Virus record (IMG/VR): IMGVR_UViG_2651869691_000007
Coordinates: 1 to 12,183 of that record
Origin: a virus
Taxonomy: Duplodnaviria; Heunggongvirae; Uroviricota; Caudoviricetes
Direction: 5' to 3' (one strand)
DNA: 12,183 nucleotides
Shown here: positions 317-10,835 of the stretch, in pieces
Position numbering within the stretch: the stretch's first letter is position 1
Layout: every line of letters starts with the position of its first letter
The notes under the pieces: generated by a model
The model's input: only the letters and a program-made list of their open reading frames with translations
The model's database searches: none
What the model was told of the DNA's origin: nothing
Position numbers and translations under genes: made by a program

Positions 317-2650
317 TCAGGTTGTCGCAGGGTCGTCACATTTTGGCAGCCAGTCGCCGTAGCTTTCCTCTTTCAGTGTCAGGTTGGTCTGTATCCCCTG
401 TTTGGTATGGCGCTTCTCGTAATTCAGTCCGTATTCCTTCAGCATCACCGGTAGCCCCAGCCCGAACATTTTCAGACTGAGTACATTCCGGTAGCCGTTT
501 GCCTCCATGTAGGCCAGACAGGCGTGATAGAGGTATTTACGGTAATTACGCGGGATGATACTGGCGTTCCCCATATACATGCCGCTGGTCTGCGGCAGGG
601 TTTCCAGATAGCCGATAAAATCAAACGTCGGGTCGGCATCCCGTTTGATGTTCAGCGCCTCGTCTGAGTTCTGCTGGGACTGAAGCAGTGACCGGGCGAG
701 CATCGGGTCGCTGAACTTCTGCATCAGGTGACGCACGATGACCGCCAGCTCGCGGGTGATTTTGTCCTTAAGCTGCGGGTCGCGCTCCTGCGGGGCTATC
801 TGTTCCGGGAAGTGAATAATCACCCGCCGGCGTGACACGCCGCCGCTGCGGTCGGTGAAGCGCATCGGGTTATTGTTCACGGCCAGAATCACCGCCGGGA
901 TATGCGTGGAGTACGCATCCCGGTATTTCGGGTCAACGGACACCGCATCGCCGCCGGTGATGGCCTTGAGTCCGGCACCGTCGCCGCTCCATTTTTCCTG
1001 GTCCGGCAGGCGTATCAGTGAGAAGCCAGTTAACGCGGCACGTTCACGCGGGGATTCCAGCGTCTCAATGGTGGCCGACGTGGCGTTATCCTCCCCGGCC
1101 AGCAGGGTGGCGATTTCGGCCATGATACTTTTGCCGCTGCCGCCGGGACCGGTCACCTCCAGAAAGAGCTGCCAGTCGTAGCGGTTTGCCAGCACCATAA
1201 ACAGTGCGGCCAGAATCACGTCGCGTTTTTCCGCACGGCCACCGGCGGCACGGTCAAGCCAGCGCCAGAACGCGGGGGCGTGGGTCTCCAGCGTTTCACC
1301 GTCCACCGGCGGGGTGAAATCCACATCGCACAGGGTGCGCATCCAGTGTGACGGACTGTGCGGGTGGAACGTGCCGTTCTGCGTGTCGAGCACGCCGTTA
1401 CGAAAGCCAATCAGGCGGCGGGAGGGGGCTTCCTGCTGCGGAATAATCAGCTTCAGGGTGTCCACCACGGAGGCCACCTTCCCGGAGGAGAACGGCGCGC
1501 GCAGACGCTGAAACAGCCCGGCCACATCCCGGGCAAAGTCCTGTGGCGGCAGCACCTTCCAGACACCATTTTCATAGCGGGACAGAAGCTGGCCGTTGGC
1601 ATCGACCGCGAGCGCCTCGCCGTAATGCTCATAGATACGCATGGCCTTTTCGCTGGTACTCATGGCGGAAAACTCCGCTTCGCTCATGGTGTCGAACGGG
1701 CTTTCAGCCGGTGGCCGGATGGCATCATAAATGGCCTTACGGGTGGCCTCCCCGCCGTACTGCGTGAAGGCATCATTCCAGTCACCGAAGACCGGCGGCA
1801 GGGCAACAACACCCTCACACGCATCTGCGGCTGCGGCGGCTTTTGTCTGGCCGTCACCGCTGAGGTCACGGTCTGCGGCAAGGACAATCTGACAGGCCGG
1901 ATACTTCTGCCGGGCAAGGCTGGCCAGAGAAAGGAGGTTCACGGAAGAAAGCGCCACCATCACCGTTTCACCGGTCAGGTGATGCACGGTAAGTGCGGTC
2001 GCGTATCCCTCCGCTATCCACAGACGTTTTCCGGCCTGATTCTGTCCTTCAAAGATGTGACAGGTGCCCCTGACCTGCCCGCCTTTCAGAGTGCGCTTAC
2101 GGCCGTCAGCACTGATTAACTGAAGGTTAACCAGTTCGCCACTGTCGTCATACAGTGGCACCACAAGGTCACCGGCGCGCCAGCTCACGCCACCGGCTCT
2201 GTGTGTGCCGGTCAGCATCCGGCATTCCCGGTCGGGAAAGCCCTTGCGGGTCAGGTAGGCGTTACCGGTTCCGGGACGGGTTTTTGCCATCAGGGTTTGT
2301 GCCAGTGCGGCGGCGTTCTTCCGGGCAGCGTCTGTTTCAGCGCCGGCGGCGGCCGTCACTGCCGGGTCAGCCGGGGGCAGGCTGCCGGTCACGGCAGCCA
2401 CCTTTGCGGCCGCGTCGGACGGGGAGACACCAAACACCTTTTCAACCAGTTTCAGGCCGTCACCGGCACCACACTGATTGCAGTACCAGGTGCCGCGCCC
2501 CTCCCTGTCATCAAAACGGAAGCGGTCACTCCCGCCACAGACCGGACAGGGCTGATGACGGTTTTTCAGCACCTGAATCCCCAGCGCCGGGAGAATACGC
2601 GGCCAGTGGCCGAGCGCATGGCTGACGGTGGCGGTTACGTTCATTTTCAT
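317..2650 (-). CDS. alpha: P4 alpha-type DNA primase-helicase (777 aa)
   Basis: 777-aa ORF; N-terminal Cys4 zinc ribbon (CPVCGG...YCNQCG), TOPRIM-like segment (WIAEGYATAL...LAADRDLSGDG), Walker A GPGGSGKS. Length and N-terminus match recalled P4 alpha. The C-terminal domain would bind the TGTTCACC iterons seen at ori and crr. Confidence 0.9.
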   Translation of the reverse strand: MKMNVTATVSHALGHWPRILPALGIQVLKNRHQPCPVCGGSDRFRFDDREGRGTWYCNQCGAGDGLKLVEKVFGVSPSDAAAKVAAVTGSLPPADPAVTAAAGAETDAARKNAAALAQTLMAKTRPGTGNAYLTRKGFPDRECRMLTGTHRAGGVSWRAGDLVVPLYDDSGELVNLQLISADGRKRTLKGGQVRGTCHIFEGQNQAGKRLWIAEGYATALTVHHLTGETVMVALSSVNLLSLASLARQKYPACQIVLAADRDLSGDGQTKAAAAADACEGVVALPPVFGDWNDAFTQYGGEATRKAIYDAIRPPAESPFDTMSEAEFSAMSTSEKAMRIYEHYGEALAVDANGQLLSRYENGVWKVLPPQDFARDVAGLFQRLRAPFSSGKVASVVDTLKLIIPQQEAPSRRLIGFRNGVLDTQNGTFHPHSPSHWMRTLCDVDFTPPVDGETLETHAPAFWRWLDRAAGGRAEKRDVILAALFMVLANRYDWQLFLEVTGPGGSGKSIMAEIATLLAGEDNATSATIETLESPRERAALTGFSLIRLPDQEKWSGDGAGLKAITGGDAVSVDPKYRDAYSTHIPAVILAVNNNPMRFTDRSGGVSRRRVIIHFPEQIAPQERDPQLKDKITRELAVIVRHLMQKFSDPMLARSLLQSQQNSDEALNIKRDADPTFDFIGYLETLPQTSGMYMGNASIIPRNYRKYLYHACLAYMEANGYRNVLSLKMFGLGLPVMLKEYGLNYEKRHTKQGIQTNLTLKEESYGDWLPKCDDPATT

Positions 2651-4046: not shown

Positions 4047-4448
4047 GATGGCAGCCTCCTTGAAGTAACAGTTACAGCTACCACTAGAGTTCCTACGCTC
4101 ATGGGTGGTAGCCCGGACGGGGGTAGGAATACCGGCCTTCAAGGAAACCGGCCAGCCCGAAGGCTGCCCCGCCCGGACCACCATTATCTGACAGAGGCTA
4201 CGGTTTAAAAACCACAGCCAGAAAAACAGGTGTGCCGAAGCAACGACGTAAAAAAAGACGCATGGCGCGTCATATGTCGCCTTGAAGTAACTCGGGTTCC
4301 TACGCCCGGCTGCCGATTTTGCGGCAGCGGAAAAACTATATCCGCAAATGCCGGAAAAAGGCAAGCCAGAAAAAGGGAGTTTTTGCAGAGCGGGCATCAT
4401 CATGCGTCGTACCCCCGTTTGCGTCCGGCAATGCGTCCGGCCATCCAT
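3849..4448 (-). CDS. eta: eta-like long ORF (199 aa) starting upstream of PLE and containing kil in frame
   Basis: 199-aa ORF whose ATG (4448) lies upstream of the predicted PLE (4335-4364) and which spans the cI region. Matches the nested eta/kil arrangement reported for P4; translation is expected only from PLL transcripts. Confidence 0.4.
4104..4172 (-). ncRNA. cI: cI immunity RNA region (contains seqB)
   Basis: Minus-strand transcript 4172->4104 (69 nt) is closed by GGUGGU/ACCACC, has an internal CAGCC-UUCG-GGCUG tetraloop hairpin, and carries seqB (4123-4144) complementary to seqA (4280-4305) and seqC (4058-4098). Processed ends cannot be set from sequence. Confidence 0.45.
4250..4271 (-). 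terminator. Hairpin plus U7 in the PLE leader (candidate attenuator/terminator between seqA and cI)
   Basis: Minus-strand RNA: GACGC-GCCAU-GCGUC (4257-4271) followed by U7 (4250-4256). The stem is short (5 bp), so efficiency is uncertain. Confidence 0.35.
4335..4364 (-). promoter_or_regulatory. Candidate sigma70 promoter PLE (-35 TTGCCT, 18-bp spacer, -10 TATAGT)
   Basis: On the minus strand: TTGCCT (4359-4364), 18-bp spacer, TATAGT (4335-4340); sits inside eta, just downstream of the vis stop and upstream of seqA, as expected for P4 PLE. Confidence 0.4.
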
Positions 4449-4666
4449 GCGGTGACTTCAGAGTGCAGCCAGGCCACATTTTTACCGCCAAGACTCACCT
4501 GCGGCGGAAATTCCCCCTTACGGATGAGTTCGTAGATGGTCGAGCGTGACAGGCCGCACAGGTGCATCACTTCCGGAAGACGTAAAAAACGCTCCTGTGT
4601 GATGTCCGGCAGCGGCATCAGTGGCGTCACAGGGGCGGGAGAAGGGGAAGAAAAAACAGCTTGCAT
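4400..4666 (-). CDS. vis: Vis/AlpA-family small DNA-binding regulator (88 aa)
   Basis: 88-aa ORF with AlpA-type HTH ([46 protein letters not shown]); GAGG SD 7 nt upstream; first gene downstream of the PLL dyad; matches P4 vis (orf88) in size and position. Confidence 0.75.
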
Positions 4667-4768
4667 CGGGCTACCTCGTTAATGTCCATACAGCACCGGA
4701 TAAGTCCGTCCGGCTTCGGGTAGCGCTTTATTTTGTGAATATTTTCAGCAGACGCAACAGGGGGGATT

Positions 4769-4786
4769 TGTTCCGGCAGCCTTACA
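4769..4786 (-). promoter_or_regulatory. TGT-N12-ACA dyad: candidate Delta/Ogr activator site of late promoter PLL
   Basis: Exact TGT(4769-4771)-N12-ACA(4784-4786); sits roughly 100 bp upstream of the vis ATG (4666), consistent with a -55-centred activator site for a minus-strand promoter. The -10 element is weak, as is typical for activator-dependent P2/P4 late promoters. Confidence 0.45.
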
Positions 4787-4811
4787 ATGCTTGTGTATTT
4801 TTTGTTCATCT

Positions 4812-4841
4812 CCACTTAAAGTCATTTAAAGCCACTTAAAG
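4812..4841. repeat. Three tandem 10-bp repeats (CCACTTAAAG / TCATTTAAAG / CCACTTAAAG)
   Basis: Seen directly; the 10-bp period puts the sites on one helix face; located between the PLL dyad and the ori iterons. Confidence 0.5.
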
Positions 4842-4945
4842 CAATTCGTAATTTTTATAGTGAAATACAAATCGTTTTTTCTTATTCATTCCCGGCGAAT
4901 TAATAAAAACAAACAGTAATAAACAGCACAAAAAGCCCATCAACG

Positions 4946-5050
4946 GGTGAACAGTGGTGAACAGACGGTGAACAGCCATTACTGCAATTGTTCACCCTTT
5001 AACTTACTGTATTACCTATCTTTTTTCTTATGGTGAACAGAGGTGAACAG
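4946..5050. repeat. ori: ori-like iteron cluster: six type-I iterons (five direct GGTGAACAG, one inverted TGTTCACC)
   Basis: GGTGAACAG at 4946-4954, 4956-4964, 4967-4975, 5032-5040, 5042-5050; inverted TGTTCACC at 4989-4996. Flanked by AT-rich DNA and a 15-bp direct repeat AAAAACAAACAGTAA (4905-4919 and 5061-5075). P4 ori is reported to hold six type-I iterons. Confidence 0.6.
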
Positions 5051-5128
5051 TAAAATATAAAAAAACAAACAGTAAGCCGGTTTTTCCTGCGACCTTTTCC
5101 TGGCTTGCCGGTCTGAGGATGAGTCTCC

Positions 5129-5146
5129 TGTGTCAGGGCTGGCACA
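5129..5146 (+). promoter_or_regulatory. TGT-N12-ACA dyad: candidate Delta/Ogr activator site of late promoter Psid
   Basis: Exact TGT(5129-5131)-N12-ACA(5144-5146), centred ~82 bp upstream of the sid ATG (5219), consistent with a -55-centred site and a short leader. Confidence 0.5.
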
Positions 5147-5218
5147 TCTGCAATGCGTCGTGTTGTTGTCCGGTGTACGTCACAATTTTCTCAACCTGAA
5201 GTGACGAGGAGCCGGAAA

Positions 5219-5928
5219 ATGTCTGACAACACCATCCCTGAATATCTGCAACCCGCACTGGCACAACTGGAAAAGGCCAGAGCCGCCCACCTTGAGAACG
5301 CCCGCCTGATGGATGAGACCGTCACGGCCATTGAACGGGCAGAGCAGGAAAAAAATGCGCTGACGACTGGCGCACGGCCTTTCGTGCAGCCAGTGGTGTC
5401 CTGAGCGACGAGCTGAAACAGCGCCACATTGAGCGCGTGGCACGCCGGGAGCTGGTACAGGAATATGACAATCTGGCCGTGGTGCTGAATTTTGAACGCG
5501 AACGCCTGAAAGGGGCGTGTGACAGCACGGCCACCGCCTACCGGAAGGCACATCATCACCTTCTGAGTCTGTATGCAGAGCATGAGCTGGAACACGCCCT
5601 GAATGAAACCTGTGAGGCGCTTGTCCGGGCAATGCATCTGAGCATTCTGGTACAGAAAAATCCGCTCGCCAACACCACCGGGCATCAGGGCTACGTCGCA
5701 CCCGATAAAGTTGTCATGCAGCAGGTGAAATCATCACTGGAACAGAAAATAAAACAGATGCAAATCAGCCTCACCGGCGAGCCGGTTCTCCGGCTGACCG
5801 GACTGTCAGCGGCAACGCTCCCGCACATGGATTATGAGGTGGCAGGCACACCGGCACAGCGCAAGGTGTGGCAGGACAAAATAGACCAGCAGGGAGCAGA
5901 GCTTAAGGCCAGAGGACTGCTGTCATGA
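5219..5928 (+). pseudogene. sid: sid (external capsid size-determination scaffold) interrupted by a frameshift
   Basis: ATG at 5219 (GAGGAG upstream; MSDNTIPEYLQPALAQ...) runs in frame 2 to TGA at 5402-5404. The continuation (…AFRAASGVLSDELKQRHIERVARRELVQEY… to 5928) is open in frame 1 from 5335. The two frames overlap only in 5335-5401, which contains an A7 run (5349-5355). A sequencing error is possible. Confidence 0.6.
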
Positions 5929-6498: not shown

Positions 6499-7071
6499 AT
6501 GGAAAGCACAGCCTTACAGCAGGCCTTTGACACGTGTCAGAATAACAAAGCAGCATGGCTGCAACGCAAAAATGAGCTGGCTGCGGCCGAACAGGAATAT
6601 CTGCGGCTTCTGTCAGGAGAAGGCAGAAACGTCAGTCGCCTTGACGAATTACGCAATATTATCGAAGTCAGAAAATGGCAGGTGAATCAGGCCGCCGGTC
6701 GTTATATTCGTTCGCATGAAGCCGTTCAGCACATCAGCATCCGCGACCGGCTGAATGATTTTATGCAGCAGCACGGCACAGCACTGGCGGCGGCACTGGC
6801 ACCGGAGCTGATGGGCTACAGTGAGCTGACGGCCATTGCCCGAAACTGTGCCATACAGCGTGCCACAGATGCCCTGCGTGAAGCCCTCCTGTCCTGGCTT
6901 GCGAAGGGTGAAAAAATTAATTATTCCGCACAGGATAGCGACATTTTAACGACCATCGGATTCAGGCCTGACGCGGCTTCGGTGGATGACAGCCGTGAAA
7001 AATTCACCCCTGCGCAGAACATGATTTTTTCGCGTAAAAGTGCGCAACTGGCATCACGTCAGTCTGTGTAA
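6499..7071 (+). CDS. psu: Psu polarity-suppression / capsid decoration protein (190 aa)
   Basis: 190-aa ORF following delta; N-terminus MESTALQQAFDTCQNNKAAW and length match recalled P4 Psu. Confidence 0.85.
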   Translation: MESTALQQAFDTCQNNKAAWLQRKNELAAAEQEYLRLLSGEGRNVSRLDELRNIIEVRKWQVNQAAGRYIRSHEAVQHISIRDRLNDFMQQHGTALAAALAPELMGYSELTAIARNCAIQRATDALREALLSWLAKGEKINYSAQDSDILTTIGFRPDAASVDDSREKFTPAQNMIFSRKSAQLASRQSV

Positions 7072-7272: not shown

Positions 7273-7962
7273 TCATTTATTTTGTAATGCCGCATCAAAT
7301 CTGGTCTTGAGATCTTGGAATGGGATAACGAGTTTATCGATATAATCTTTATTATTATTTTGTAGAATTGCTTCAACAAAATCATTTAGAGGTGCATAGT
7401 TTTCTAATACTTTAGAATCGATAAAATCTTTATAGGACATACATTCAGCACCAATGCTAAGGCTTTCACCTATATACTTTTGTTCAAGAGATCTAATACA
7501 AGGAAAACCAATATCGTTCTCTCGTAGGGCTATAGAAATATTTTTGATTAATTCAGTTATTAACATTTCATCATTAGTTGGTGAAAATACAGATGAATCT
7601 CTATTTTTCCTGAATTGATGTACCCAGCAAAAATATTGGCATAGATAGAATCTTGTACTATCAATATAATATTGATCCGACGATAGGTCATTGTGATCTT
7701 TAATATAACATAGCCTTCCTAAAAAACCATTTGCAGCACTAAGTAATGTTAACCCCCAACGTCCGATTTCAAGATCTCTTGCTTTTTTAAAATTATAAGC
7801 ACGTTCATCCTCTTTAATTCTCTGTTCACTTTCATATTTCAACTTATTTTTAAATGATTCTAACTCTCTTTTATCAATATGTTGTAAAAAAGCCTTACAA
7901 ACAAATCCAATAATTGCAAATGAAATGCTTGATGACAAAATACCTTCCCAAAAGCTACTCAT
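7273..7962 (-). CDS. Small membrane-anchored partner protein (229 aa) of the RT-nitrilase gene
   Basis: N-terminal hydrophobic helix (ILSSSISFAIIGFVCKAFL); ATG overlaps the upstream gene stop as ATGA (7959-7962) with GAGG SD; ~30% GC; no motif I can recognise in the soluble part. Confidence 0.75.
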   Translation of the reverse strand: MSSFWEGILSSSISFAIIGFVCKAFLQHIDKRELESFKNKLKYESEQRIKEDERAYNFKKARDLEIGRWGLTLLSAANGFLGRLCYIKDHNDLSSDQYYIDSTRFYLCQYFCWVHQFRKNRDSSVFSPTNDEMLITELIKNISIALRENDIGFPCIRSLEQKYIGESLSIGAECMSYKDFIDSKVLENYAPLNDFVEAILQNNNKDYIDKLVIPFQDLKTRFDAALQNK

Positions 7963-10835
7963 TTCTCACCTCGCTCTAATAGAGCATTATAGTCAAACCC
8001 TGGAGGATTGTGTTTAATAGTATCGGAGTTAATTCTGAATGAACGATATTGAGCCTCTCTCAATGCATATATATTTAAAGTAGTAGTTAGGATGCAATGG
8101 TTTTCCCCACCTTTTACATATATCTTATTTGAAATAGTGCTACTGGTCGGTTGTAGAACACAAGAACCGCCATAATGCGAAGTATTTGATTGAGCCACAT
8201 AACAATGTAAATCCCGTGTCGCTGACTCAGTGATATGTTGATAATAATTTATATCTTGATTCCATACGCAAGCAAATAAAATATCCAACTGCGAACGAAA
8301 TAATGCTCTATGCTCGATATTAGCCAGTTCAAAACAGTTGTATGTAGAAAATGATACGTTTTTCCACTTAATCAAATGATACCGTTGTTTACTAGGTTTA
8401 GGAGAGGATATTTTTAACCTTAAAGAATTCAGCATCGTAATCTCACTAGGTGCGTAATGATTTTTCACTCGAAAAACTAACATACTGGATTTGTGTTTAA
8501 AGTTTGAAGTATAAGGCAGCATTTCAACCAAAATATTATATGCGCGTTCGTTAATAACCCAATGCTCTAATCCGAAAATCAAAGATATTTGTTTTCTCCT
8601 TGAATGTGCTGCCATAAAAGGTAACCACGACACAGGAATTGATAACTCAGGGAGTAGTAATATCTGCACATTTTCTTCAGTTGCCGAGTTGAGAATACGA
8701 TAAAGGTTTCTTTGTCGTTCATAACTTAAATTTGGAGACTGATCTTTTCTGCAAGCACTTTCAATATTACGACGTTCAACTCTCATATTTGCCAACGCAA
8801 CTTTTATTGTGTCATTACCACTTCTATCATCAATTCCTACCTTTATTTCAAGAGCTTTATTATCTTTTATCTTAGTAACAGAGCAATTTTTTAAGTGATG
8901 CTTATTTTCATGCGTAAACTTATGTAGTTTTCTTGTATGAAGAGCATCAATCAAATCGAAAAGCTGCTTTTCATCAGCATGAATATATCTAGGGGTTTTA
9001 TTTAATTTATCATTATCAAGTGGAATACCATGCATCTTACTGTATAAATTCTCCTCAGTAAGATCTCCTTTATATTTAGTATAGTTAGCTAAAGGCCAAG
9101 ACACTAGATTATGACGAATCAAATTACTGCTTCTAAATCTTTCAATTAGAACAGACATTCCATCGGACTGTTTAATTAAAGATTTCAAACCTTCCAAAGC
9201 TCTATTTTGTGGCTCTTTATCACCTAAAATGACATTTAAATCTAACAAAGCCAAATTCAAACAAAGAGAAATATCAATGTATTTCTGCATTCCATTTTTA
9301 AGTTTTGGAGATATAACACTATCACCTTCCTTCCACTTCATTTTATTAATTGATTCTTTAATTTGTTTGTAAAAGGCGATTGAAAATCCATATTTTCTTG
9401 TAATTAATGTATACGATAGAACTTTCTCCCATAACCGACTGAACCTTAGAGAATTTTCACCTTTAAAAAACAGCGTTATTTGCTTTAAGGTATTCTCATT
9501 CGATGGAAGATTGCAAAGCCTATGAGCTAAGATATGTGATGATATATATTTTGATAATTCAGTTTCATTCTCTGCCAAACCTACAATACTTCTAAATTTA
9601 TTTGCCGAACCATCAAGTAATATATCATAAGCAAATTTATCGAGATCGCTAGATATATGTTCTTCCGGTAAAAAACGAAATGCACTGCTTCTGTTCTCAA
9701 TTTCTTGTTTGAAGACTTGTAAACCAGCCAAACTATGATCTTTATTGAAATAATGAAAAATCAATTTATCCTTTTGAATTGGTAATTCATGATAACTCTC
9801 GGTCAACGTAAAGCCTTTCTCATCATTCGCTGCCTGTTTGATGAATCCATTAAGGGTTCGCTCTATGAATTTTATTACTTCTTCACCTTTATCTTCTTTT
9901 TTAATGTCCGGAGATGAAAAAACTAAAAGAATATCATCCACATAGCGACCGTAGTACGATGGATTAATTTTTGATTTAATATCTTTATCAAAACCCATTA
10001 AATACCAATTAGATAATATGGCAGAAGAAGTAAATCCAATTGGAATGCCTTTTGATGAAGGAGTTGAATGTGTCACACCAATATATGGAGATATTTTCTC
10101 TCTGTATTTTTGATGCATCAACCTCAATTTACTATTCAACAACATAGAAAGAGCTTTAATTTCTTCTAATTGTTCTTCGTCAATAATTCTATCAATGGCA
10201 TCAAAATCTATATCTATATTATAATAAAAACCCTTAAGATCCAGAGAAAGAATTGCAACATCATTTCGCTCTTTTTCTATAACTTCTATCGCTTTATCGA
10301 TACCACCATCTCGCCATTTATTATAATTATCAATGTATCTTTCAAAGATATTTTTTGAGGAGTTTTTTGGCGCATCGAAACTATTCTTAGAATATTTTTT
10401 TATTACTTTTGATATTCTATTTCCATAAACCGAATCAGAAAACTTGTCATCTAGCATTGAACCAACAAAGATAGACCAGAGTGTTTCTATTAAATATATT
10501 TCAATAGGAGCAACGATCAAATAATTTACAGCACCTACTTTGTATTCATCTGATGTCTTATTATTACTTAAAAAAAGAGCTCCGCTCGTTTGCTCAATAT
10601 CCAAATGGCTATCAATTTTTTTTGGTAATAATTCAACATCAATTTTATTTAGCCACTCATTAAAGTTAATGTCATTATTATTTTCAAAAAAATCAACCAC
10701 TTTTTCTATTTTTTCGTCATAGAGAGAATCTTCAAATTGAGCGATTTCTTCCTTTAGGAAAAAATTTAAGTTTTCGTAGTAAGCATATGACTTAAGACAA
10801 TTATATGCACTAACAACTATATCTTTTGTAATCAT
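7959..10835 (-). CDS. Reverse transcriptase fused to C-terminal nitrilase (carbon-nitrogen hydrolase) domain, 958 aa; candidate defence-associated RT
   Basis: RT motifs: LSLDLKGFYYNIDIDF (aa 196-211), PIGFTSSAILSNWYL (aa 265-279), YGRYVDDILLVF with YVDD encoded at 9933-9944. CN-hydrolase signature: IKVALANMRV, LLLPE (Glu730, 8646-8648), FRVKNHY (Lys), YNCFE (Cys834 at 8334-8336, Glu836). N-terminal ~185 aa and the aa 310-670 region are unassigned. Confidence 0.85.
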   Translation of the reverse strand: MITKDIVVSAYNCLKSYAYYENLNFFLKEEIAQFEDSLYDEKIEKVVDFFENNNDINFNEWLNKIDVELLPKKIDSHLDIEQTSGALFLSNNKTSDEYKVGAVNYLIVAPIEIYLIETLWSIFVGSMLDDKFSDSVYGNRISKVIKKYSKNSFDAPKNSSKNIFERYIDNYNKWRDGGIDKAIEVIEKERNDVAILSLDLKGFYYNIDIDFDAIDRIIDEEQLEEIKALSMLLNSKLRLMHQKYREKISPYIGVTHSTPSSKGIPIGFTSSAILSNWYLMGFDKDIKSKINPSYYGRYVDDILLVFSSPDIKKEDKGEEVIKFIERTLNGFIKQAANDEKGFTLTESYHELPIQKDKLIFHYFNKDHSLAGLQVFKQEIENRSSAFRFLPEEHISSDLDKFAYDILLDGSANKFRSIVGLAENETELSKYISSHILAHRLCNLPSNENTLKQITLFFKGENSLRFSRLWEKVLSYTLITRKYGFSIAFYKQIKESINKMKWKEGDSVISPKLKNGMQKYIDISLCLNLALLDLNVILGDKEPQNRALEGLKSLIKQSDGMSVLIERFRSSNLIRHNLVSWPLANYTKYKGDLTEENLYSKMHGIPLDNDKLNKTPRYIHADEKQLFDLIDALHTRKLHKFTHENKHHLKNCSVTKIKDNKALEIKVGIDDRSGNDTIKVALANMRVERRNIESACRKDQSPNLSYERQRNLYRILNSATEENVQILLLPELSIPVSWLPFMAAHSRRKQISLIFGLEHWVINERAYNILVEMLPYTSNFKHKSSMLVFRVKNHYAPSEITMLNSLRLKISSPKPSKQRYHLIKWKNVSFSTYNCFELANIEHRALFRSQLDILFACVWNQDINYYQHITESATRDLHCYVAQSNTSHYGGSCVLQPTSSTISNKIYVKGGENHCILTTTLNIYALREAQYRSFRINSDTIKHNPPGFDYNALLERGEK

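What the first reader, a model, noticed from the sequence alone, without database searches (positions are those of the whole stretch)
4812..4841. Unexplained triple 10-bp tandem repeat next to the PLL activator site
CCACTTAAAG, TCATTTAAAG and CCACTTAAAG are in perfect helical phase, 26 bp from the PLL dyad and ~100 bp from the iterons. I do not recognise it as a described P4 site. It could bind Vis, alpha, IHF or another factor that couples late transcription to replication.
Basis: seen in the sequence. Interest (0 to 1): 0.45.

Follow-up and report, generated by a model that had tools for sequence, protein, structure and literature searches.

The report
P2 Cox-binding boxes upstream of P4 PLL
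The three 10-bp repeats are the already described docking site where the helper phage P2's Cox protein binds to switch on the satellite phage P4, so the finding is ordinary; in related satellites, however, this same spot carries repeats that match other helper phages.

Summary
The repeat is real: 4812-4841, three 10-bp units in exact phase. It is not an unexplained site. The window is a P4-type prophage, 97.6% identical to P4 in this region, and the 30 bp are identical to P4 X51522 9176-9205. GenBank annotates those bases as three 'ori type 2 repeats'. Read 4 nt further on, they are three consecutive P2 'cox-boxes': TTAAAGTCA, TTAAAGCCA and TTAAAGCAA. Against the published consensus TTAAA(G/C)NC(A/C) they score 9/9, 9/9 and 8/9, with the published 10-11 bp spacing. 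They lie upstream of PLL and face away from it, where the P2 Cox footprint was reported (Saha 1989, cited in PMC3936717).

Most likely mechanism: the helper's Cox oligomerises on the array and activates PLL. PLL drives vis...alpha, which leads to derepression and replication of the P4 prophage. Vis, alpha and IHF are not supported as binders.

Extra observation, possibly new: in close E. coli relatives almost all divergence in this region falls in a ~45-bp cassette at exactly this position. Across about 74 P4-like satellites the cassette holds different 10-11 bp phased arrays. Several match the operators of other P2-like helpers' Cox/Apl proteins (186, WPhi, PsP3, Fels-2), and the arrays vary independently of Vis.

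Verdict: already known; low interest as submitted.

The parts
4812..4841 (+). It equals the P4 'ori type 2 repeat' x3 (X51522 9176-9205).
   Evidence: TRF. Identical to P4 in alignment A1. GenBank features.
4816..4824 (+). cox-box 1, TTAAAGTCA (9/9 to TTAAA(G/C)NC(A/C))
   Evidence: Consensus taken from PMC3936717 and PMC5009727.
4826..4834 (+). cox-box 2, TTAAAGCCA (9/9)
4836..4844 (+). cox-box 3, TTAAAGCAA (8/9)
4805..4869 (+). Span that also holds three weak candidate boxes at 7/9: 4805 TTCATCTCC, 4855 TTATAGTGA and 4861 TGAAATACA. This is the likely extent of the published >=70-nt Cox footprint.
   Evidence: The footprint size comes from the literature. Assigning the weak boxes to the footprint is inference.
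4806..4856 (.). Swappable cassette. In close E. coli relatives almost all of the region's divergence falls here, and alternative phased arrays replace the cox-boxes.
   Evidence: Alignment A3. Genome counts.
4770..4787 (-). PLL activator (Delta/Ogr) dyad TGT-N12-ACA, read on the minus strand as TGTAAGGCTGCCGGAACA.
   Evidence: Sequence. The half-sites are kept against P4 while the spacer carries 3 substitutions (A/C, T/A, T/C). Its role follows from established knowledge of P2/P4 late promoters.
4721..4736 (-). Inferred PLL -10 and transcription start (+1 near 4723). This places the three strong cox-boxes at about -93 to -121.
   Evidence: Inferred from the dyad being centred at -55 (established for P2/P4 late promoters). 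No sigma-70 consensus promoter was found, as expected for an activator-dependent promoter.
4400..4666 (-). vis (orf88), the first gene of the PLL transcript; AlpA-family winged HTH.
   Evidence: 99% identical to P4 ORF88. Pfam Phage_AlpA, E = 7e-21.
4946..5049 (.). ori1 type I iterons (GGTGAACA / TGTTCACC) at 4946, 4956, 4967, 4989 (inverted), 5032 and 5042. These are the alpha-binding sites.
   Evidence: by offset from the annotated P4 features.
5129..5146 (+). Psid activator dyad TGTGTCAGGGCTGGCACA.
   Evidence: Sequence; identical to P4.

Best explanation
The three repeats are the core of the P2 Cox-binding array ('cox-boxes') of satellite phage P4. They sit about 90-120 bp upstream of the late promoter PLL.

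Proposed sequence of events:
1. A P2-type helper is derepressed or infects the cell and makes Cox. Cox is its excisionase and its repressor of the Pc promoter.
2. Cox monomers bind head-to-tail, one per helical turn, on the three phased boxes. They then spread cooperatively into the weaker flanking boxes, bending or wrapping the DNA.
3. The boxes lie upstream of PLL and point away from it, so the promoter stays free and is activated instead of occluded. In P2, boxes in the same orientation overlap the Pc promoter and repress it.
4. PLL transcripts read through vis and the left operon, including alpha. The P4 prophage is thereby derepressed, replicates and can exploit the helper.

What is shown here: sequence identity to P4, and the fit to the cox-box consensus, spacing, orientation and position.
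What is taken from the literature: Cox binding and Cox-dependent activation of PLL.
What is inferred: the positions relative to +1, and the 'displaced operator' logic.
For: - The window is 97.6% identical to P4 over 4400-5400.
- The 30 bp are identical to P4 9176-9205.
- The boxes score 9/9, 9/9 and 8/9 against TTAAA(G/C)NC(A/C), with 10-bp spacing.
- This is the best phased triplet in the window, 26 of 27; no randomisation of 300 exceeded 23.
- PMC3936717 states that the Cox binding site lies upstream of P4 PLL. It gives a footprint of >=70 nt, >=6 boxes, 10-11 bp spacing, and boxes facing away from the promoter.
- PMC5009727 gives the same consensus and says P2 Cox activates PLL whereas WPhi Cox does not.
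- The P2 RefSeq record annotates cox as activating the P4 promoter.
- P2's own Pe-Pc region has three same-strand boxes about 10 bp apart that overlap Pc.
- The cassette is conserved: 441 complete E. coli genomes carry it, 253 of them at >=99% identity over 56 nt.
Against: - Only three strong boxes are present. The literature speaks of at least six per site, and the other candidates here score only 7/9.
The exact protected bases therefore rest on secondary citation.
- No binding or reporter experiment can be run with these tools.
- This copy of the element has a frameshifted sid, so it may not be fully functional as a satellite.
Confidence: 0.9

Rival explanations
1. The repeats are an operator for the satellite's own Vis protein. 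Vis is an AlpA-family excisionase and regulator encoded next door, and it is known to repress PLL. Proteins of this class bind tandem repeats one helical turn apart.
For: Recombination directionality factors bind head-to-tail direct repeats spaced one turn apart (PMC7498355). vis lies 146 bp away. From my memory of Polo 1996 (not read here), Vis binds the PLL region.
Against: The Vis helix-turn-helix and wing are almost invariant across satellites whose arrays differ completely. Vis pairs 98-99% identical carry different array classes, and the same class occurs with Vis only 51-56% identical. No similar array is visible in the P4 int-attP interval, where Vis boxes were reported.
Confidence: 0.05
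2. The repeats are a working part of the replication origin ('type II repeats' of ori), needed for alpha-dependent initiation or for origin unwinding.
For: GenBank X51522 places them inside the rep_origin feature and names them 'ori type 2 repeat'. They lie about 105 bp from the alpha iterons.
Against: Close relatives keep the iterons and the AT-rich stretch but replace exactly this cassette with unrelated sequence. Alpha stays 84-98% identical, and the iterons are unchanged in L004 and L005, whose arrays differ. From my memory of Tocchetti 1999 (not verified here), the minimal ori1 is a 123-bp segment with the six iterons and an AT-rich stretch, which excludes this site.
Confidence: 0.04
3. 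It is a site for a host nucleoid protein such as IHF, or an intrinsically curved DNA element with phased A-tracts, which shapes the PLL upstream region without any phage-specific factor.
For: TTTAAA/TTAAA tracts repeat every 10 bp, which could add curvature (sequence).
Against: No IHF consensus (WATCARNNNNTTR, <=1 mismatch) occurs within 4700-5100. A host-factor site should be conserved across satellites of one host. Instead E. coli satellites carry at least three discrete cassettes, several lacking A-tracts but matching helper-phage operators.
Confidence: 0.03
4. It is a chance or slippage-generated tandem repeat with no function.
For: It is short, and the individual 10-mer is not enriched in the window.
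Against: The phased triplet exceeds all 300 randomisations. It is identical in P4 and conserved at >=95% in about 414 E. coli genomes. The same position holds phased arrays in 50 of 74 satellites, against 8.8% of control windows.
Confidence: 0.01

Closest known systems
P2 Cox operator in the P2 Pe-Pc switch region, and the Cox site in P2 attP
   Same: Same recognition consensus TTAAA(G/C)NC(A/C). Same-strand boxes about 10 bp apart: P2 25954 TAAAAGGCA, 25964 TATAAGACA and 25973 TTAAACGCA. According to the literature the same protein binds all of them.
   Different: In P2 the boxes overlap the -10 and -35 of Pc and repress it, and at attP they serve excision. In P4 and in the window they sit about 90-120 bp upstream of PLL, face away from it, and activate. 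The P4 boxes fit the consensus better than P2's own (9/9, 9/9, 8/9 against 8/9, 7/9, 9/9).
P4 'ori type II repeats' (GenBank X51522 features; my attribution to Flensburg & Calendar 1987 is from memory)
   Same: Literally the same 30 bp.
   Different: That name implies a replication role. The comparative data here argue that the sequence is not tied to alpha or to the iterons.
Phage 186 Apl operators (pR-pL and attP)
   Same: Same architecture: short direct repeats 10-11 bp apart, bound cooperatively by a small HTH protein that is both excisionase and regulator. At least three adjacent sites are needed (PMC7498355).
   Different: Different recognition sequence (TGGCAA) and an unrelated protein. 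The window has no such chain: 21 of 30, within the random range. Other P4-like satellites do carry it at this position (L005, 27 of 30).
Lambda Xis X1-X1.5-X2 micro-filament
   Same: Head-to-tail binding of a winged-helix protein on three phased repeats, with DNA bending (cited in PMC7498355).
   Different: Xis acts in excision at attR, not as an activator of a promoter in another genetic element.
SaPI Stl derepression by helper-phage proteins (functional analogy, from general knowledge)
   Same: A satellite senses a specific helper-encoded early protein in order to leave dormancy.
   Different: SaPIs use a protein-protein antirepressor mechanism. Here the sensor is a DNA operator array that copies the helper regulator's own binding sites.

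Membership tests
P2 Cox-binding array (cox-boxes) | Match to consensus TTAAA(G/C)NC(A/C) | tested here: met
   4816 TTAAAGTCA 9/9, 4826 TTAAAGCCA 9/9, 4836 TTAAAGCAA 8/9. Consensus.
P2 Cox-binding array (cox-boxes) | Boxes 10-11 bp apart, start to start | tested here: met
   Spacing is 10 and 10. The phased-triplet score of 26/27 exceeds all 300 randomisations.
P2 Cox-binding array (cox-boxes) | At least six boxes, within a footprint of >=70 nt | tested here: inconclusive
   Three strong boxes plus three weak ones at 7/9 within 4805-4869. P2's own annotated sites also contain 7/9 boxes.
P2 Cox-binding array (cox-boxes) | Located upstream of P4 PLL, facing away from the promoter | tested here: met
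   The boxes are on the + strand at 4816-4844. PLL fires leftward from about 4723, and the dyad is at 4770-4787. The sequence is identical to P4.
P2 Cox-binding array (cox-boxes) | Bound by P2 Cox, with Cox-dependent activation of PLL | not testable with these tools
   Reported for P4 by Saha 1989, as cited in PMC3936717. The primary paper is not held.
P4 ori type II repeat | Identity to the annotated features X51522 9176-9185, 9186-9195 and 9196-9205 | tested here: met
Alpha type I iteron | TGTTCACC / GGTGAACA octamer | tested here: not met
   No octamer lies within 4812-4844. The iterons are at 4946-5049.
Vis operator | Sequence should co-vary with the Vis DNA-binding surface. The published Vis box consensus was not available to me. 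| tested here: not met
   Vis pairs 98-99% identical carry different arrays, and identical HTH and wing sequences occur across classes.
IHF site | WATCARNNNNTTR | tested here: not met
   No match at <=1 mismatch between 4700 and 5100.
Delta/Ogr activator site | TGT-N12-ACA dyad | tested here: not met
   The dyad is separate, at 4770-4787. There is none inside the repeat.

The most novel reading that the evidence does not exclude
The cox-box array may be one allele of a general, swappable 'helper-sensor' cassette. P4-like satellites across Enterobacterales keep, at a fixed place just upstream of the PLL activator site, a phased array. That array copies the operator of the Cox/Apl-type excisionase-regulator of whichever P2-like helper they exploit. 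Arrays found match P2 Cox (TTAAAGNCA), WPhi Cox (GGACTGGAAGGG), 186 Apl (TGGCAA), PsP3 (TGCAGT) and Fels-2 (TAAAAC), and some arrays are composite. Exchange of this ~45-bp cassette between otherwise near-identical satellites would set which helper can wake which satellite. I found no description of this in the searchable literature, but older or subscription papers could not be searched.
Probability: 0.6. Interest if true: 0.62.

Novelty: already known. Interest (0 to 1): 0.28.

Why it matters
As submitted, the finding matters little. The site is a textbook part of P2-P4 'mutual derepression', and it is correctly present in a P4-type prophage.

The comparative pattern around it could matter more. 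If the cassette really encodes helper specificity, then the satellite-helper pairing of hundreds of P4-like prophages could be read directly from about 45 bp of DNA. In 5,426 complete E. coli genomes, 441 carry the P2-type cassette, 280 the WPhi-like type and 373 a third type. It would also explain the published finding that WPhi Cox cannot activate P4. Finally, it offers a simple handle, a cassette swap, for re-targeting P4-based delivery vectors to other helpers.

Tried and rejected
Rejected after testing:
- Vis operator. I first favoured this, because excisionase-type proteins bind phased repeats. I dropped it when the Vis DNA-binding segments proved almost invariant across satellites with unrelated arrays.
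- Alpha or origin function. The iterons and alpha are conserved while the cassette is swapped.
- IHF. No consensus match near the site.

Led nowhere:
- Literature searches for P4 Vis/PLL and ori papers mostly returned unrelated work.
- The primary papers are not held: Tocchetti 1999, Ziegelin 1993 and Saha 1989.
- BLAST of the TTGGCC-type and GTGCA-type arrays against phage genomes gave only chance hits.
- An IUPAC pattern scan of IMG/VR for TTGRCC arrays returned mostly unrelated tandem repeats plus the satellites themselves.
- Two Klebsiella P2-like phages gave no match for the TTGGCC class. One has P2-like boxes.
- 6-mer sharing is too crude for degenerate operators. It did not even recover the experimentally established P4-P2 pair (z = 0.7). 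It also left the E. coli 042-type cassette unassigned and L004 ambiguous.
- A test of co-occurrence between cassette type and the resident helper prophage could not be done, because hit lists are capped at 60 rows.

Full report
**Observation.** The sequence at 4812-4841 reads CCACTTAAAG TCATTTAAAG CCACTTAAAG. Tandem Repeats Finder reports 4812-4842, period 10, 3.1 copies, score 48. The single 10-mer is not over-represented in the window: 4 matches against 2.9 expected. Three adjacent, phased copies are exceptional, however. Scored against the cox-box consensus, the best phased triplet in the window lies here, at 26 of 27. None of 300 first-order Markov randomisations exceeded 23. The quoted distances to the TGT-N12-ACA dyad (4770-4787) and to the iterons (from 4946) are about right.

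**Context.** The window is a P4-type prophage.
- 4400-5400 is 97.6% identical to P4.
- alpha (317-2650, minus strand) is 98.5% identical to P4 alpha.
- vis is 4400-4666 on the minus strand.
- The six type I iterons of ori1 lie at 4946-5049.
- The Psid dyad lies at 5129-5146.
- The iterons next to the repeat are therefore ori1, not crr. In P4, crr lies beyond alpha.

**Identity of the repeat.** The 30 bp are identical to P4 X51522 9176-9205. That record annotates them as three 'ori type 2 repeats' inside the origin feature. The older record X02534 marks 'imp. direct repeat 3/3'' there. So the site has been described.

More informatively, shifting the register by 4 nt gives TTAAAGTCA, TTAAAGCCA and TTAAAGCAA at 4816, 4826 and 4836. 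These score 9/9, 9/9 and 8/9 against the P2 'cox-box' consensus TTAAA(G/C)NC(A/C).

PMC3936717 states the following about the P2 Cox site:
- Protected regions span at least 70 nt and hold at least six boxes, 10-11 bp apart.
- At PLL the boxes face away from the promoter, leaving it accessible.

PMC5009727 repeats the consensus. It adds that P2 Cox activates PLL, whereas WPhi Cox does not and recognises a different repeat. The P2 RefSeq record annotates cox as activating the P4 promoter. P2's own Pe-Pc region shows three same-strand boxes about 10 bp apart that overlap Pc. All sequence-level defining features are met here. Only the count of at least six boxes is inconclusive, with three strong boxes and three at 7/9 within 4805-4869. 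Binding itself cannot be tested with these tools.

**Mechanism.** The dyad should be centred at -55, as is established for P2/P4 late promoters. That puts +1 of PLL near 4723 and the strong boxes at about -93 to -121 (inference). Helper Cox would bind one monomer per helical turn, spread cooperatively and bend or wrap the DNA (literature). In P2, boxes in the same orientation overlap a leftward promoter and repress it. In P4 they are displaced upstream of a leftward promoter and activate it (inference). PLL transcripts run through vis into the left operon, including alpha. Cox thereby derepresses the P4 prophage and starts its replication. The factor is helper-encoded.

**Rivals.**
- Vis was attractive, because excisionase-type proteins bind phased direct repeats. 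But Vis HTH and wing sequences are nearly invariant across satellites with unrelated arrays. Vis pairs 98-99% identical carry different arrays, and the same array class occurs with Vis only 51-56% identical.
- An alpha or origin role is unlikely. Relatives keep the iterons and an 84-98% identical alpha while replacing exactly this segment. From memory, not verified here, the minimal ori1 of Tocchetti 1999 excludes it.
- No IHF consensus lies nearby.
- Chance is excluded by the conservation data.

**Beyond the finding: a swapped cassette.** I aligned P4, the window and five E. coli relatives that are 87-92% identical over this region. Almost all divergence falls in a ~45-bp cassette at 4806-4856. 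PLL, the dyad, the AT-rich stretch and the iterons are nearly identical.

Three discrete cassettes account for essentially all such regions in 5,426 complete E. coli genomes. The region as a whole occurs in 1,074 genomes.

| Cassette | Genomes |
|---|---|
| P2 cox-box type | 441 (253 at >=99% over 56 nt) |
| O157 type | 280 |
| 042 type | 373 |

**Beyond the finding: other satellites.** I surveyed 80 Vis-homologue loci from other Enterobacterales.
- 74 have P4-type iterons.
- 50 of the 74 carry at least 3 phased (9-11 bp) repeat copies at the same distance from vis, against 8.8% of control windows.
- 24 of the 74 carry at least 4 copies, against 0.28% of control windows.

The arrays fall into many sequence classes, and several match operators defined independently in helper phages.

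| Helper regulator | Motif | Satellite evidence |
|---|---|---|
| 186 Apl | TGGCAA | L005: best 5-site chain in an 18-kb locus is the array, 27 of 30; shuffle maximum 23. Same motif at the attP of Erwinia phage EtG. |
| WPhi Cox | AAGGGACTGG | The O157 cassette shares the 12-mer GGACTGGAAGGG with WPhi attP (6-mer sharing z = 4.5). In L004 the only two near-matches in 18 kb lie in the array, 20 bp apart, but L004 is ambiguous (see limits). |
| PsP3 | TGCAGT | L076 and L083: 18 of 18, reached by 0 of 200 shuffles. |
| Fels-2 Apl | TAAAAC | L037 and L061: 16 of 18, reached by 0 of 200 shuffles. |

Some arrays are composite, with TGGCAAA units followed by TGCA units (L012, L013, L035, L039, L043).

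The natural reading is that the PLL-upstream array is a modular helper sensor that copies the helper regulator's own operator. The published failure of WPhi Cox to activate P4 fits this reading. I found no description of it in the searchable library. The older literature could not be searched.

**Limits.**
- The 042-type cassette and several other classes remain unassigned. These include TTGGCC, the Pantoea AGTACTAA class and CTTATTAGT.
- L004 is ambiguous between P2-like and WPhi-like boxes.
- Co-occurrence with resident helpers could not be tested.
- All functional statements about the non-P4 cassettes are inference.

**Verdict.** The submitted finding is real but already known. It is the P2 Cox-binding site of P4, also annotated as the ori type II repeats. 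Interest as submitted is low. The cassette polymorphism seen around it is the part worth following up.

Noticed in passing
window 4806-4856; L204-L208 (alignment A3): Among E. coli P4-type prophages 87-92% identical over this region, divergence is concentrated in a ~45-bp cassette exactly at the cox-box array. Three discrete alleles occur in 441, 280 and 373 of 5,426 complete genomes. Each allele is internally >=95% conserved.
   Followed up: yes
L005 9126-9176; L076 and L083 about 160-170 bp upstream of vis; L037 and L061 about 130-175 bp upstream of vis; L208 187-245: At the same position, other P4-like satellites carry phased arrays that match helper operators. The matches are to 186 Apl (TGGCAA), PsP3 (TGCAGT), Fels-2 Apl (TAAAAC) and WPhi Cox (GGACTGGAAGGG). 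Each is statistically supported by helper-derived motif chains.
   Followed up: yes
L012, L013, L035, L039, L043 (about 130-190 bp upstream of vis): Composite arrays: two or three TGGCAAA units (186-Apl type) are followed directly by three (A/T)TGCA units (PsP3 type). This may allow a response to two helper types.
   Followed up: partly
L028, L050, L052, L058, L060 (upstream of vis): A subgroup of satellites has no obvious phased array. Instead they share a conserved segment, TTGCCACATGACGCGCTGAGA, at that place. Its meaning is unknown.
   Followed up: no
window about 5219-5928 (sid): sid appears frameshifted. A 25-bp deletion at about 5358, relative to P4 9722-9746, splits it into 5153/5219-5404 and 5437-5928. 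This copy may not be able to redirect capsid size, or the deletion may be an assembly error.
   Followed up: partly
window 7273-10835 (minus strand): The variable region between psu and int carries a defence reverse-transcriptase system in place of P4's gop/beta/cII. It consists of a 958-aa RT_UG5-nitrilase (full-length PADLOC match) and a 229-aa RT-associated membrane protein.
   Followed up: partly
window 4700-4760; same region in L004, L005 and most survey loci: The promoter-proximal segment GGTAGCGCT(N)TATTTTGTGAATATTTT is almost invariant, even in satellites only 67% identical overall. It is a candidate for the PLL core and possibly for the conserved Vis operator.
   Followed up: no
window 4773-4784 vs P4: The spacer of the PLL TGT-N12-ACA dyad differs from P4 at three positions (TCCGGCAGCCTT vs TCAGGCTGTCTT). 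The TGT and ACA half-sites are kept.
   Followed up: no
L099 (IMG/VR contig, 14,111 bp) 6579-6604 and 9215-9240: One viral contig carries two identical copies of a TTGGCC-type array with its PLL context, 2.6 kb apart. This suggests a tandem or partly duplicated satellite.
   Followed up: no
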